Assembly (NCBI GenBank): GCA_021788675.1
Contig: JAJYKI010000001.1
Span: 1 to 28,841 of the forward strand
Origin: a bacterium
GTDB lineage: Bacteria; Patescibacteriota; Saccharimonadia; Saccharimonadales; UBA4665
DNA length: 28,841 nt
Direction of reading: 5' to 3'
Shown: piece after piece, positions 1 through 28,201 of the stretch
Layout of the letters: the number at the start of each line of letters is the position of its first letter
Numbering within the stretch: position 1 is the first letter of the stretch
Translations under genes and position numbers: made by a program
Notes under the pieces: generated by a model
Databases searched by the model: none
What the model saw: the letters and a program-made list of their open reading frames with translations, nothing else
Told to the model about the DNA's origin: nothing

Positions 1-104
1 CATAGCGCGAGGGAAACACCTGTTCCCATGCCGAACACAGCAGTTAAGCCTCGCAGCGGTTACAATACTTGGGGTTCACCCCTGGGAAAATAGCACGGTG
101 CCAA
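1..104 (+). rRNA. rrf: 5S rRNA (5' end cut by window edge)
   Basis: Conserved 5S blocks CATAGCG..., CACCTG-TCCCATGCCGAAC-CAG-AGTTAAGC and GGGG-TTCA-CCCC helix; ends ...CGGTGCCAA; followed by a terminator. Confidence 0.95.
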
Positions 105-113
105 ATTTTGATT

Positions 114-24804: not shown

Positions 24805-25080
24805 ATGAAAGTACTAGTGCTTTACAAACCAAAATCAGAACATCGTCAGGCGATTGAAGATTTCATCAGTCAGTTTAAAGAAAAACACCCTCGTTCGAAG
24901 GTTGAGGTTCTAGACGTCGACCGGCGCGAAGGTATAGCGATGGCCAGCATCTACGATGTTATGCGTTATCCGTCTATTCTGGCTTTAAGAGATGACGGCA
25001 CGGTTTTACAGACTTGGGAGGGTGAAGAAAACCTGCCTCGCCTAGATGATGTTGGCGTATACGCCATCGATCAGTTCTAG
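24805..25080 (+). CDS. Cysteine-free thioredoxin-fold small protein
   Basis: Pattern KVLVLY-helix-VEVLDVD-helix-YDVMRYPSILAL-DDG...W fits the Trx fold with the cis-Pro-type YP, but no Cys. Confidence 0.55.
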   Translation: MKVLVLYKPKSEHRQAIEDFISQFKEKHPRSKVEVLDVDRREGIAMASIYDVMRYPSILALRDDGTVLQTWEGEENLPRLDDVGVYAIDQF

Positions 25081-25084
25081 AGTA

Positions 25085-25093
25085 TGGTATAGT
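25085..25093 (+). promoter_or_regulatory. Extended -10 promoter for T-box/ileS
   Basis: TG-G-TATAGT, about 12 nt upstream of T-box Stem I. Confidence 0.6.
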
Positions 25094-25104: not shown

Positions 25105-25301
25105 GTCCGCTATAAGCAGCTATCCACTGCAAGGACCGGGAAGAAACAACCCCCATAGGTTGGAGTAGAACCCGTCGGAATGGCCCGTAACAGCCAAAAT
25201 TAAGTGCTTTTGAGTAAAACCTCAAGGGAAAACGGATGGTACCGTCCTTTAGAAAAGCTGAAGGATTCCGTTAGAACTTGAGGTTTTTATTATTTAAGGA
25301 G
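25105..25301 (+). ncRNA. ileS T-box riboswitch, ultrashort Stem I (Actinobacteria-like) type
   Basis: Stem I GTCC..GCAG-CTATCCA-CTGC..GGAC with ATC at 25122-25124; Stem II with GAA/AGTA S-turn; IIA TGGC-CCGTAACA-GCCA; Stem III 25207-25228; AACGGA-TGGTACC-GTCCTT...AAGGAT-TCCGTT discriminator. Confidence 0.88.
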
Positions 25302-25309
25302 TTGTTGCA

Positions 25310-28201
25310 ATGAAATTCAAGCAGAAAAGTCGTCGACCGGCAATCGAGTACGAAAAAGATCTGATCAAGTACTGGAAAGACAATAAGATATTTGAGAAAT
25401 CGGTTGAGGAAAGACCTAAAGATGATGCCTATGTATTTTATGATGGGCCACCCTTCATAACGGGTGTGCCGCACCACGGAACGCTCTTGTCCAGCATTAC
25501 CAAGGATGCCGTCCCCAGGTACTGGACGATGAAAGGCAAACGAGTCGAAAGAGTCTGGGGATGGGACTGTCATGGTTTGCCGGCCGAAGTATTTACTGAG
25601 AAAAAACTCGGGATTAAAGACAAGCGCGATATTGGCGACAAAATATCCTTAGAGGATTATATTCTGACATGCCGGGCCAATATGGTACAGACCGGTAGTG
25701 AATGGGAGGACACGATCGACCGGATTGGTCGTTGGGTTAATTTCAAAGGCGCTTATAAAACCATGGATAAGGACTACATGGAGTCGGTTTGGTGGGCGTT
25801 TAAAGAGTTGTATGATGCCGGCAAGATATATGAAGGTGAAAAGGTTTTGCTTTACTGCATCAGAGATGCGACGCCCATATCTAAAGCTGAAGTAGCCGAG
25901 GGTAATTCATACAAGGACGATACCGATCCGTCGGTCTATGTGAAGTTAAAGCTTAAGGATAGCGACGCTTATTTATTGGCCTGGACTACCACCCCATGGA
26001 CATTGCCCTCTAACACGGCGGCCGCAGTTAATCGTGATTTGGAATATGTCGAGGTATTGGTCGGCGGCGATAAATTAATTATGGCCAGAGATCTAATGAA
26101 GCGGGTGCTGCTTGATGAAAAAAATAAGCCACTGGAATACACGGAAGTCAGAAGCTTTAAGGGCAGTGAGCTGATTGGCAAGGAGTATGAACCATTATTC
26201 GAGAACCAGGGCGAAAACGCTCACAAAGTCTGGCATGCAGACTACGTGAATGTGGATGACGGTACCGGAGTGGTGCATTTGTCTCCGGCCTACGGTGAAG
26301 AAGATTTTGAATTAGCTAAACAAAACAACATACCCATAGTATCCAATCTGGATGACTACGGTATTTATGTCAGTGGTGATTGGAAGGGCGAACAGGTCTG
26401 GGAGATAAATAAGGTTATAGCCAAGAGCTTGCACGAGCGGGGAGTCGTTTGGAAGATTGAATATATAAAGCACTCTTATCCGCATTGTCATCGTTGTGAT
26501 ACCAAGCTAATATATCGTGCGCATCCAAGTTGGTTTTTAAATATTACAGATCAGCGTGATGACATGCTGAAGCTGAATAAAAATATTAACTGGTTTCCTG
26601 AGCATATAAAAAACGGTCGGTTCGCCAAGACGGTTGAGTCGGCTCCGGATTGGAATTTGAGTCGTGACCGGTTTTGGGCTACGGCTATGCCAGTTTGGAA
26701 AGGCACTGATTCTAACGGCCAGGAGCACATAAAAGTCGTCGGCAGTTATAGCGAACTGAAGGAGCTGTCGGGTGTTGAATTGGAAGATTATCACCGGCCG
26801 TGGGTCGATGACATTACGTTTACGATTGACGGTGTTGAATATAAGCGGATAGATAAAGTTTTGGACTGCTGGTTTGAAAGCGGCAGCATGCCGTTTGCCC
26901 AATTCCATTATCCGTTTGAGAATGTAGAAAAGTTTGAAAATAACTTTCCCGGTGACTTTATCGCCGAATATGTCGGTCAGGTCAGAGCCTGGTTTTACTA
27001 TCTACACTCCTTGTCTACCGGATTATTTAACAGCAATGCATTTAAAAATGTTATCGTGACCGGCACGCTCGCCGGTAATGATGGCAGAAAAATGAGCAAA
27101 AGCTATGGCAACTATACCGACCCCAACGTTCTAATGGATCGCTATAGCGCCGATGCGCTTAGGTTTCTGTTGCTTAGCTCGCCGTTGCTTAATGCCGAAG
27201 ACTTTTCTTTGATCGACAAAGACGTCGCCGATACCAGTCGTAAGCTGGCTATGATATGGAACATTTACGACTTCTTCAGCCTGTATGCTGATGTCGATAA
27301 CTGGGAATGGGACCCCTCAAATGTCTCCGCCCCAGATTCGAACAATATTCTTGATCAATGGATAGTGTCACGCGTTCACCAGCTTAATCGATCGATAGAC
27401 GAGTCGATGCAGCACTACGATATACCCGGAGCACTAAAGCCGGTCATGGGCTTCATAGATGATGCTTCAAATTGGTATGTGCGTCGCTCTCGCAAACGTT
27501 TTTGGAAGACTGAAAACGATAGCGATAAAAACCAGGCCTATGCGACACTGCATTATGTGTTAACGCAGTTGAGCATATTGCTTGCGCCGTTTGTACCGTT
27601 CTTGTCGGAAGAGCTGTATAGGCTTTTGTGTGGCGGTGAAAGCGTGCATTTGCTTGAATGGCCCAAGGCAGGTGTTGTAGATGAAACATTAATAGAAACC
27701 ATGGGCTTTGTGCGCGACATAATAAATGAAGGTCTTAGGCAGCGCGCTGAAGCCGGCATTAAAGTCCGTCAACCGCTCAACTCGGTAACAATACATGACA
27801 CTAGATCGAGACTAACAAAAGAATTGCAGGGAATAATAGCCGAGGAGCTTAATGTTAAAAAAATCGAGGTCGATGCTAAGGAAAGTGAGCTGCCGGTGGT
27901 TGTTGACCTGCGAATCACTCCCGATCTCAAGAGAGAGGGTTTAGCCAGAGAGATTATTAGGAATGTACAGAACGCAAGAAAAAATGCCGGCCTGAACGTT
28001 GACGACAGGATAGATCTGGAGCTCGGTTCTGACAGCGGTGATCTGGTATCCGTTTATGAAGATAAGCAGCTGCAGCAAGCTATAACCAAAGAGACCCTGG
28101 CAGTCAGCATCAATCAAGGTGAGCTAGGCGACGCGTACTCAGAATTAGTTAAAGTCGAGGGTATGGAGTTAGGAATAAAGCTTAAAGTTGCTGCTAACTA
28201 G
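25310..28201 (+). CDS. ileS: Isoleucine--tRNA ligase, type 2 (IleRS2)
   Basis: FYDGPPF, HIGH variant HHGT, WGWDCHGLP, AWTTTPWTLP, WFESGSMP, KMSKS; C-terminal LKREGLAREIIR-VQ-RK domain with no Zn finger. Confidence 0.97.
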   Translation: MKFKQKSRRPAIEYEKDLIKYWKDNKIFEKSVEERPKDDAYVFYDGPPFITGVPHHGTLLSSITKDAVPRYWTMKGKRVERVWGWDCHGLPAEVFTEKKLGIKDKRDIGDKISLEDYILTCRANMVQTGSEWEDTIDRIGRWVNFKGAYKTMDKDYMESVWWAFKELYDAGKIYEGEKVLLYCIRDATPISKAEVAEGNSYKDDTDPSVYVKLKLKDSDAYLLAWTTTPWTLPSNTAAAVNRDLEYVEVLVGGDKLIMARDLMKRVLLDEKNKPLEYTEVRSFKGSELIGKEYEPLFENQGENAHKVWHADYVNVDDGTGVVHLSPAYGEEDFELAKQNNIPIVSNLDDYGIYVSGDWKGEQVWEINKVIAKSLHERGVVWKIEYIKHSYPHCHRCDTKLIYRAHPSWFLNITDQRDDMLKLNKNINWFPEHIKNGRFAKTVESAPDWNLSRDRFWATAMPVWKGTDSNGQEHIKVVGSYSELKELSGVELEDYHRPWVDDITFTIDGVEYKRIDKVLDCWFESGSMPFAQFHYPFENVEKFENNFPGDFIAEYVGQVRAWFYYLHSLSTGLFNSNAFKNVIVTGTLAGNDGRKMSKSYGNYTDPNVLMDRYSADALRFLLLSSPLLNAEDFSLIDKDVADTSRKLAMIWNIYDFFSLYADVDNWEWDPSNVSAPDSNNILDQWIVSRVHQLNRSIDESMQHYDIPGALKPVMGFIDDASNWYVRRSRKRFWKTENDSDKNQAYATLHYVLTQLSILLAPFVPFLSEELYRLLCGGESVHLLEWPKAGVVDETLIETMGFVRDIINEGLRQRAEAGIKVRQPLNSVTIHDTRSRLTKELQGIIAEELNVKKIEVDAKESELPVVVDLRITPDLKREGLAREIIRNVQNARKNAGLNVDDRIDLELGSDSGDLVSVYEDKQLQQAITKETLAVSINQGELGDAYSELVKVEGMELGIKLKVAAN

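What the first reader, a model, noticed from the sequence alone, without database searches (positions are those of the whole stretch)
25105..25309. Ultrashort-Stem-I ileS T-box riboswitch in an apparent CPR genome
Seen: all modules are present in order. Mini Stem I with the Ile codon ATC in the apical loop (25122-25124); Stem II S-turn (GAA/AGTA); IIA with CCGTAA; Stem III; and a TGGTACC bulge between two helices. Its 3' strand ATTCCGTT can alternatively pair with the SD region AAGGAGT (25296-25302). Established: this compact translational T-box class is described for actinobacterial ileS. Inference: tRNA-Ile-sensing translational control in a lineage thought to have minimal regulation; I am not aware of it being described in CPR.
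Basis: partly seen in the sequence, partly recalled or inferred. Interest (0 to 1): 0.8.

Follow-up and report, generated by a model that had tools for sequence, protein, structure and literature searches.

The report
Isoleucine T-box with nested terminator
The leader of the isoleucyl-tRNA synthetase gene in this Saccharibacteria (CPR) genome is a genuine tRNA-sensing T-box riboswitch, but it most likely stops transcription, not translation, using a terminator hairpin that wraps around the tRNA-end-binding helix and takes one strand of the neighbouring Stem III.

Summary
Window 25105-25295 holds every T-box module in order, upstream of ileS (25310-28201). The contig is Saccharibacterial and syntenic with relatives.

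Rfam's T-box model scores only 36 bits against a cut-off of 93. Models I built from relatives find the element in 75 of 80 Saccharibacteria ileS loci and 15 of 18 same-genus genomes. AUC is invariant in a 7-nt apical loop, and every helix shows compensatory changes.

The proposed translational mechanism is not supported. Pairing of the antiterminator 3' strand with the SD is weak and not conserved. Instead, an 11-bp helix (25216-25226 with 25277-25287) followed by a U tract encloses the intact A1/bulge/A2 hairpin. It shares six bases with Stem III. All 12 of its modelled pairs covary, and 8 of 9 Stem III pairs covary. So this is probably a transcription attenuator whose OFF helix captures the 5' flank of helix A1.

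T-boxes as such are not rare in CPR. Rfam's model hits 51 of 151 sampled Patescibacteria, and those I folded mostly have canonical terminators. The same nested layout controls ileS, valS and thrS in other families.

I found no paper describing this. This scan has already reported the same element on at least 41 other genomes.

The parts
25085..25093 (+). Candidate extended -10 promoter element (TGgTATAGT). The predicted transcript start is about 25100.
   Evidence: Read directly from the sequence. Similar TATAGT/TATAAT-like hexamers lie about 20-30 nt before the Stem I base in relatives. The simple promoter scan did not list it because there is no -35 match. This part is inference.
25105..25136 (+). 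Ultrashort Stem I. Closing helix 25105-25108/25133-25136. Asymmetric, K-turn-like internal loop. Apical helix 25116-25119/25127-25130. Seven-nt specifier loop with AUC at 25122-25124.
   Evidence: A 4-bp stem plus a NNAUCNN loop is found at the same place in 57 of 60 relatives. All 4 stem pairs show compensatory changes, and A10, U11 and C12 are invariant. The base after the codon is C here and in two close relatives, and A in most others.
25137..25174 (+). Stem II. Lower helix 25137-25140/25171-25174. S-turn-type purine motifs AAGAA (25141-25145) and AGUAGAA (25164-25170). Upper helix about 25147-25151/25158-25162.
   Evidence: On a MAFFT alignment that was not fitted to the structure, all 5 lower-helix pairs show compensatory changes and 93.6% of cells are paired. 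The AGUAGA letters are invariant or nearly so.
25176..25196 (+). Stem IIA (25176-25178/25185-25187), with CCGUAA, and a putative IIB pseudoknot (UGGC 25181-25184 with GCCA 25193-25196).
   Evidence: Stem IIA is 90.7% paired. Complementarity for IIB of at least 4 bp occurs in 27 of 50 relatives, with mean length 3.5 against 2.9 in shuffles. That is suggestive only.
25202..25230 (+). Discriminator 5' part. Purine string AAGUG (25202-25206). Stem III 25207-25214/25221-25228 with loop 25215-25220. AA linker 25229-25230.
   Evidence: Stem III has 9 pairs; 8 show compensatory changes and 92.5% of cells are paired, against 29-58% when the partner is slid. The flanks match the RRRxG-Stem III-AA motif described in PMC7583486.
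25231..25272 (+). Antiterminator-type element. Helix A1 25231-25236/25267-25272. T-box bulge UGGUACC 25237-25243. Helix A2 25244-25252/25258-25266, with a closing G25244-U25266 wobble.
   Evidence: A1 is 99.4% paired and A2 95.7%, both with compensatory changes. The bulge core is invariant. UGGU is complementary to the ACCA end of Saccharibacterial tRNA-Ile(GAU), which has A73 and an encoded CCA.
25216..25287 (+). Outer (terminator) helix. AAAACCUCAAG 25216-25226 pairs with CUUGAGGUUUU 25277-25287. It encloses A1/bulge/A2 and shares 25221-25226 with the 3' strand of Stem III.
   Evidence: This is the minimum-free-energy fold. Across 60 relatives, all 12 modelled pairs show compensatory changes and 93% of cells are paired, against 37-55% when slid. 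The OFF fold is 7.7 kcal/mol more stable than the ON fold here, and 8.6 on average.
25284..25295 (+). U tract (UUUUUAUUAUUU) directly after the outer helix.
   Evidence: At least 6 T in the 9 nt after the outer helix in 56 of 60 relatives.
25296..25312 (+). Shine-Dalgarno AAGGAG (25296-25301) and the ileS start codon (25310-25312).
   Evidence: Read from the sequence. The ORF 25310-28201 is a class I tRNA synthetase with anticodon-binding and DUF5915 domains.
25310..28201 (+). ileS, the regulated gene (963 aa).
   Evidence: Pfam tRNA-synt_1 at E 4.9e-113, plus Anticodon_1 and DUF5915. It is 62-77% identical to Saccharibacteria IleRS.

Best explanation
This is a tRNA-Ile(GAU)-sensing T-box leader that most likely controls ileS by transcription attenuation.

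Shown:
- The decoding half (ultrashort Stem I with AUC in its apical loop, Stem II, Stem IIA) and the discriminator half (purine string, Stem III, A1, UGGUACC bulge, A2 with a G-U closing pair) are conserved and covary.
- Two covarying helices are mutually exclusive because both use bases 25221-25226. One is Stem III. The other is an outer helix that pairs the Stem III loop and 3' strand with the sequence just downstream of A1.
- The outer helix is followed at once by a U tract.

Inferred:
[quoted passage not shown] The 5' flank of A1 then cannot be captured, no hairpin abuts the U tract, and RNA polymerase reads into ileS.
- Without tRNA, or with charged tRNA that undocks Stem III, the downstream strand invades Stem III. 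It closes a long hairpin (outer helix, A1, bulge, A2) against the U tract, and transcription terminates.
- Unlike textbook T-boxes, the NCCA-binding helix is not unfolded in the OFF state.
For: T-box identity:
- The Rfam match is full length at E 1.5e-6, and it is the only candidate in the genome.
- AUC is invariant in the specifier loop in 57 of 60 relatives.
- The UGGU bulge fits the A73-CCA end of tRNA-Ile(GAU), including in same-genus genomes.
- In other Patescibacteria, the same model finds leaders whose specifier and bulge change with the gene: GUC before valS, ACC with a UGGA bulge before thrS, AUC before ileS.

Switch:
- The outer helix is present in the minimum-free-energy fold of 53 of 57 leaders.
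- All 12 outer-helix pairs are compensatory, at 93% paired against 37-55% when slid.
- Eight of 9 Stem III pairs are compensatory.
- The OFF fold is favoured by 7.7 kcal/mol here and 8.6 on average, and 56 of 60 leaders have a U tract.
- Two Saccharibacterial ileS leaders (L018, L054) have an ordinary terminator at the same position, built from the A1/A2 3' strands. This argues that the output is termination.
- Canonical T-boxes from other Patescibacteria, folded the same way, show canonical terminators in at least 4 of 8 cases and none shows the nested one. So the nested result is not a folding artefact.

Plausibility from the literature:
- In the M. tuberculosis ileS T-box, charged tRNA still pairs with the antisequestrator, but the linker and Stem III undock (PMC12647780).
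- Stem III is an integral part of the aminoacylation sensor (PMC7583486).
Against: - There is no experimental or RNA-seq evidence for termination at the U tract.
- The hairpin has a roughly 50-nt structured insert, and a simple terminator scan does not list it.
- Four of the 11 outer pairs here are A-U pairs that overlap the U tract.
- The literature I read says transcriptional T-boxes need the long Stem I elbow contact, which this leader lacks.
- About ten relatives lack Stem III, and their outer helix pairs the linker itself. Competition with Stem III therefore cannot be the whole mechanism.
- The base 3' of the specifier is C here rather than the usual purine.
- One relative (L010) has a UGGC bulge although its tRNA-Ile has A73.
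- tRNA-Ile(GAU) is not in this 85%-complete assembly.
Confidence: 0.7

Rival explanations
1. This is a translational T-box. Without uncharged tRNA, the 3' strand of the antisequestrator (AUUCCGUU, 25265-25272) pairs with the SD region (25296-25302) and blocks ribosome binding.
For: In this window the pairing is possible, at -6.6 kcal/mol against -3.4 for shuffled SD regions. The decoding domain resembles the actinobacterial translational ileS class, which has an ultrashort Stem I.
Against: - Across 47 relatives, the pairing averages -4.8 against -3.9 kcal/mol for shuffles. Only 4 reach -8.
- The UCC it relies on is conserved anyway, as the A1 partner of the invariant GGA.
- The pairing would have to displace a hairpin of about -15 kcal/mol.
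- A conserved, covarying helix plus U tract lies between the antiterminator and the SD.
Confidence: 0.07
2. The T-box is real, but the long nested hairpin is not a conditional terminator. It could be a constitutive or leaky terminator or a stabilising or processing structure. Regulation would then come by another route, for example tRNA-dependent protection from RNases, or combined transcriptional and translational effects.
For: The OFF hairpin keeps the tRNA-binding bulge intact, so secondary structure alone does not make tRNA binding and hairpin formation exclusive. The variants without Stem III have no competing helix.
Against: Strict conservation of discriminator features has no purpose without a tRNA-dependent switch; these features are the purine string, the AA linker and, in about half of the relatives, a G-U closing pair of A2 (GU in 29-30 of 60-61). 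The outer helix sits immediately against a U tract in 56 of 60 leaders. Relatives with canonical antiterminator/terminator wiring sit at the same locus.
Confidence: 0.17
3. This is a decaying or non-functional remnant of a T-box in a reduced genome.
For: The score is below Rfam's threshold. The base after the specifier is C rather than a purine. Six of 80 related ileS loci have lost the element.
Against: All modules are intact. Compensatory changes occur throughout, even within the genus, where leader identity is 69-87% and every helix is kept.
Confidence: 0.03

Closest known systems
Actinobacterial ileS T-box with ultrashort Stem I (Mycobacterium tuberculosis / M. smegmatis / Nocardia farcinica; the translational Ile class in TBDB)
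   Same: - The regulated gene (ileS) and the AUC specifier mounted in the apical loop of a very short Stem I with no distal elbow-binding platform.
- A Stem II with S-turn-type motifs plus a IIA(/B) element.
- A discriminator made of purine string, Stem III, A1, 7-nt bulge and A2.
   Different: - The host is Saccharibacteria (Patescibacteria), not Actinobacteria.
- There is no conserved SD-sequestering helix.
- Instead there is a helix plus U tract that encloses A1/A2 and competes with Stem III.
- I could not run the TBDB translational model, and the original papers (Sherwood 2015, Battaglia 2019) were not held.
Canonical transcriptional T-box (Bacillus subtilis tyrS / glyQS type; Rfam RF00230)
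   Same: - The probable output: intrinsic termination against read-through, decided by uncharged tRNA.
- The T-box bulge pairing with NCCA.
- An OFF state that is more stable than the ON state.
   Different: - Canonical terminators use the 3' strands of A1 and A2 as their 5' strand, and so unfold the antiterminator. Here A1 and A2 stay folded, and the terminator's 5' strand is the Stem III loop and 3' strand.
- Stem I lacks the long arm and the elbow contact that the review calls essential for transcriptional T-boxes.
- The Rfam score is 36 bits against a cut-off of 93.
Canonical long-Stem-I T-boxes found here in other Patescibacteria families (for example L162, L163, L170, L171)
   Same: The phylum and the T-box core sequence.
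   Different: They reach 68-103 bits with Rfam. L162 and L163 are above the 93-bit cut-off at about 102 bits; L170 (70 bits) and L171 (68 bits) are below it. They have ordinary terminators built from the antiterminator 3' strand.

Membership tests
T-box riboswitch (Rfam RF00230) | A specifier codon that matches the amino acid of the regulated gene, presented in Stem I | tested here: met
   AUC at 25122-25124 lies upstream of ileS. It is invariant in 57 of 60 relatives. Related leaders carry GUC before valS and ACC before thrS.
T-box riboswitch (Rfam RF00230) | [quoted passage not shown] | tested here: met
   UGGUACC at 25237-25243. A1 is 99% paired and A2 96% paired, with compensatory changes. 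Saccharibacterial tRNA-Ile(GAU) ends in A73-CCA. One exception is L010, with UGGC against A73.
T-box riboswitch (Rfam RF00230) | Stem III flanked by RRRxG and AA (the discriminator) | tested here: met
   AAGUG, then Stem III, then AA, at 25202-25230. Eight of 9 Stem III pairs are compensatory. The motif definition comes from PMC7583486.
T-box riboswitch (Rfam RF00230) | A Stem II S-turn and a IIA/B pseudoknot | tested here: inconclusive
   The Stem II lower helix covaries in 5 of 5 pairs, and the AAGAA/AGUAGAA motifs are conserved. Pseudoknot IIB has only weak statistical support.
T-box riboswitch (Rfam RF00230) | A score at or above Rfam's gathering threshold | tested here: not met
   36 bits against 93. 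E is 6.3e-7 for the genome.
T-box riboswitch (Rfam RF00230) | A terminator or sequestrator whose 5' strand is the 3' strand of A1/A2, so that it is mutually exclusive with the antiterminator | tested here: not met
   The downstream strand 25277-25287 pairs with 25216-25226 (Stem III loop and 3' strand) and encloses A1/A2. The canonical wiring is seen only in L018 and L054.
T-box riboswitch (Rfam RF00230) | Binds its cognate uncharged tRNA and responds to it | not testable with these tools
   This needs binding and transcription assays.
Actinobacterial translational ileS T-box (ultrashort Stem I) | The specifier sits in the apical loop of a short Stem I without a distal platform, with the Stem II domain present | tested here: met
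Actinobacterial translational ileS T-box (ultrashort Stem I) | An SD-sequestering helix alternative to the antisequestrator | tested here: not met
   Mean -4.8 against -3.9 kcal/mol for shuffled SD regions across 47 leaders. The U tract and terminator helix lie between the antiterminator and the SD.
Actinobacterial translational ileS T-box (ultrashort Stem I) | A match to the TBDB translational_ILE covariance model | not testable with these tools
   The model is not available here. It is described in the TBDB preprint.
Intrinsic (Rho-independent) terminator | A stable stem immediately followed by a U tract | tested here: met
   An 11-bp outer helix ends at 25287, and the U tract spans 25284-25295. 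The helix duplex is -14.8 kcal/mol. Fifty-six of 60 relatives have at least 6 T in the next 9 nt.
Intrinsic (Rho-independent) terminator | A compact hairpin with a short loop | tested here: not met
   The 'loop' is the roughly 50-nt A1/bulge/A2 hairpin. The consensus scan, which allows loops of 3-8, does not report it.

The most novel reading that the evidence does not exclude
A distinct T-box switching logic may be at work. The aminoacylation signal would pass not by unfolding the NCCA-binding antiterminator but by releasing its 5' flank (Stem III and the purine linker). A downstream strand then captures that flank to close a terminator around the still-folded tRNA-binding helix. This '5'-flank capture' platform would permit transcriptional control with an ultrashort Stem I that has no elbow contact. 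It is used for ileS, valS and thrS across several Patescibacteria families.
Probability: 0.55. Interest if true: 0.75.

Novelty: new variant of a known kind. Interest (0 to 1): 0.62.

Why it matters
T-boxes are the model system for RNA sensing of tRNA charging, and they are antibiotic targets. All mechanisms in the papers I could read have the terminator or sequestrator unfold helices A1 and A2. They also pair transcriptional control with a long Stem I that grips the tRNA elbow.

A conserved class that leaves A1 and A2 folded, switches through Stem III or the linker, and terminates transcription with an ultrashort Stem I would do two things:
- It would test directly the recent idea that Stem III and linker undocking is the primary read-out of aminoacylation.
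- It would show that ultra-small CPR bacteria keep tRNA-based feedback on their synthetases.

It also marks a gap in annotation. Rfam's model misses this type in every genome sampled from the window's order.

Tried and rejected
- Rfam at the gathering threshold found only the 5S rRNA.
- The simple terminator and promoter scan listed neither the nested terminator nor the extended -10 element.
- I tried to test covariation between the bulge N and the tRNA discriminator. tRNA-Ile(GAU) is not assembled in the window's genome, nor in the four genomes with UGGA bulges. The one informative case, L010, is a mismatch: UGGC against A73. All 20-odd Saccharibacterial tRNA-Ile genes found have A73.
- For expression, no RNA holder was listed. 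Only four DNA runs from one mine-drainage study hold the stretch. I did not lay reads, because older RNA runs are kept only as contigs, which cannot show 3' ends.
- Statistics for pseudoknot IIB were weak.
- SD sequestration was tested and found not conserved.
- Sherwood 2015, Battaglia 2019 and Vitreschak 2008 are not held in the library. My comparison with the actinobacterial class therefore rests on reviews and later papers.
- Literature searches pairing T-box with Saccharibacteria, Patescibacteria, candidate phyla radiation or TM7 returned nothing relevant.
- I could not reach Actinobacteria or Firmicutes genomes with my models, so I do not know whether the nested layout exists outside Patescibacteria.
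- I considered transfer of ileS from an actinobacterial host but did not test it with a tree.

Full report
**What is there**

The gap between a conserved 91-aa ORF (24805-25080) and ileS (25310-28201; class I synthetase, anticodon-binding and DUF5915 domains) holds a structured leader. Read 5' to 3', it contains:
- a possible extended -10 element (25085-25093);
- a short Stem I: closing helix 25105-25108/25133-25136, apical helix 25116-25119/25127-25130, and a 7-nt loop CUAUCCA with AUC at 25122-25124;
- Stem II: lower helix 25137-25140/25171-25174, flanked by AAGAA and AGUAGAA;
- Stem IIA (25176-25178/25185-25187, then UAA), with possible IIB pairing 25181-25184/25193-25196;
- the purine string AAGUG (25202-25206);
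- Stem III (25207-25214/25221-25228) and an AA linker;
- helix A1 (25231-25236/25267-25272);
- the bulge UGGUACC (25237-25243);
- helix A2 (25244-25252/25258-25266, closed by a G-U pair);
- a downstream strand (25277-25287), a U tract (25284-25295), the SD AAGGAG (25296-25301) and the ATG (25310).

**Is it more than chance, and where does it come from?**

- Rfam finds nothing here at gathering score. With E-value reporting, the T-box model matches full length at 36 bits, E 1.5e-6. It is the only candidate in the 731-kb, 109-contig, 85%-complete genome. The leader folds better than all 200 shuffles (z = -3.0).
- IleRS is 62-77% identical to proteins of Candidatus Saccharibacteria/Saccharimonadales MAGs. 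The flanking small ORFs are syntenic in 62 and 54 of 80 such loci. The contig is therefore Saccharibacterial and not chimeric.
- A covariance model of the discriminator plus downstream region (R1) hits 73 of 80 related ileS loci, and the window at 67.6 bits. Two more loci have the discriminator with a different terminator. Six have no element.
- By plain DNA similarity, 15 of 18 same-genus genomes carry the leader at 69-87% identity with all modules kept.

**Identity as an Ile T-box**

- A 4-bp stem with a NNAUCNN loop sits at the same place in 57 of 60 relatives. The stem and the Stem II lower helix show compensatory changes on an alignment that was not fitted to the structure.
- tRNA-Ile(GAU) is missing from this assembly, probably because the rRNA operon runs off the contig edge at the 5S gene. 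In other Saccharibacteria, including the same genus, it has the anticodon GAU and ends in A73-CCA, complementary to UGGU.
- The same model also finds, outside the window's order, leaders with GUC before valS, ACC with a UGGA bulge before thrS, and AUC before ileS. Specifier and bulge tracking the regulated synthetase is the classic T-box signature, and it is independent support.

**The expression platform**

- In this window that duplex is -6.6 kcal/mol.
- Over 47 leaders the mean is -4.8 against -3.9 for shuffled SD regions.
- It would have to displace an A1/A2 hairpin of about -13 to -15 kcal/mol.

What is conserved instead is complementarity between the Stem III loop plus 3' strand and the sequence just after A1.
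- It is present in the minimum-free-energy fold of 53 of 57 leaders.
- On 60 sequences aligned to R1, all 12 outer pairs show changes on both sides. 93% of cells pair, against 37-55% when the partner is slid by 1-3 columns.
- On 61 sequences aligned to an ON-state model (R2), Stem III has 8 of 9 compensatory pairs.
- In the window the two helices share 25221-25226, so they cannot coexist.
- The OFF fold (outer helix, A1, A2) is 7.7 kcal/mol more stable than the ON fold (Stem III, A1, A2), and 8.6 on average.
- The outer helix is followed by at least 6 T in 9 nt in 56 of 60 leaders.

These alignments were fitted to the models, which leans the counts towards the modelled structures. The slide controls and the raw sequences show that the effect is nonetheless real.

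**Controls and variants**

- Two Saccharibacterial ileS leaders (L018, L054) carry an ordinary terminator at the same place, with its 5' strand formed by the A2/A1 3' strands.
- T-boxes from other Patescibacteria that score 68-103 bits with Rfam, folded with the same script, show canonical terminators in at least four of eight cases (L162, L163, L170, L171). None shows an outer helix around the bulge.
- So the nested layout is not a product of my procedure, and termination is the likely output at this locus.
- About ten relatives lack Stem III. There, the outer helix pairs the linker that follows the purine string. The general rule is that the OFF helix captures the 5' flank of A1. Competition with Stem III is the form this takes in the window.

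**Mechanism (inferred)**

Reviews state three relevant points:
- In canonical T-boxes the 3' strands of A1 and A2 become the 5' strand of the terminator.
- In the M. tuberculosis ileS T-box, charged tRNA still pairs with the bulge, but the linker and Stem III undock.

This fits a model with two states:
- Uncharged tRNA-Ile keeps Stem III and the linker docked. The downstream strand cannot invade, and the polymerase passes the U tract.
- Otherwise Stem III is displaced. The long hairpin closes against the U tract, and transcription stops.

None of this has been shown experimentally. I found no RNA data for this organism.

**Known or new**

- T-boxes are not rare in CPR. Rfam's model hits 51 of 151 evenly sampled Patescibacteria genomes at E <= 0.001, five above its cut-off, with up to nine hits in one genome.
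- It finds none of the six genomes sampled from the window's order (one of the same family, five of other families), where R1 finds five.
- I found no paper that links T-boxes with Saccharibacteria, Patescibacteria or CPR. I also found none that describes a terminator nested around the antiterminator.
- The primary actinobacterial papers were not available to me.
- This scan's own notes report the same element and the same reading on at least 41 other genomes. I reached my reading before seeing them, and I tested it independently here.

**Verdict**

It is wrong about translational control, and it overstates how unusual T-boxes are in CPR.
- The element is a new variant of a known kind. It combines an ultrashort Stem I decoding domain with a conserved nested terminator that switches through Stem III.

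Noticed in passing
window 1-106: A 5S rRNA gene is cut by the contig's 5' end (73.5 bits). The rRNA operon therefore runs off the contig. That probably explains why tRNA-Ile(GAU) is missing from the assembly.
   Followed up: partly
window 24805-25080: A 91-aa ORF with no Pfam match lies directly after a class II (B12-dependent) ribonucleotide reductase. It is conserved just upstream of the ileS leader in 62 of 80 Saccharibacteria loci. Its function is unknown.
   Followed up: partly
L018:1363-1483 and L054:1404-1473: Two Saccharibacterial ileS T-boxes use the canonical terminator, with its 5' strand formed by the A2/A1 3' strands, instead of the nested one. Both wirings therefore occur at the same locus within the lineage.
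   Followed up: partly
L008, L013, L025, L028, L036, L040, L064, L072, L126, L137 (discriminator regions): These variants have no Stem III. The purine string is followed directly by a short C-rich segment that pairs with the downstream strand before the U tract.
   Followed up: partly
L127, L129, L130, L132 (valS); L131, L133, L135, L140-L142, L144 (thrS); L134, L137, L143, L145 (ileS): Patescibacteria outside the window's order carry T-boxes with the nested terminator before valS (GUC specifier), thrS (ACC specifier, UGGA bulge) and ileS. Some genomes hold two of them (G074, G105, G215). Some of the thrS leaders have a long canonical-looking Stem I.
   Followed up: partly
L046, L056, L061, L063, L070, L015, L080, L051, L030, L058, L049, L071, L055: In these loci the T-box lies 350-1400 nt upstream of ileS, so another ORF probably sits between the leader and ileS.
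   Followed up: no
L085:1612-1762 (and the matching place in L086): A roughly 150-nt stretch downstream of tRNA-Val(UAC) ends in a tRNA-like T-arm, acceptor strand and ACCA that is 95% identical to the 3' end of tRNA-Ile. It has no GAU anticodon loop. ARAGORN and Rfam call nothing there. ARAGORN and DNA searches found no ordinary tRNA-Ile(GAU) in those two genomes, whose ileS T-boxes have UGGA bulges.
   Followed up: partly
L010:1052-1135 and L082:1480-1556: This relative's ileS T-box has a UGGC bulge, although its tRNA-Ile(GAU) has A73. That predicts a C-A mismatch at the discriminator position.
   Followed up: partly
L009, L011, L016, L034 and others, upstream of the specifier hairpin: Many relatives carry an extra small hairpin inserted in the internal loop at the base of Stem I, making a three-way junction. 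The window lacks it.
   Followed up: no
L004, L006, L012 (ileS upstream regions): The conserved 91-aa ORF is still directly upstream, but the intergenic gap is too short for a leader (about 40 nt in L004). The T-box appears to have been lost in a few lineages.
   Followed up: partly
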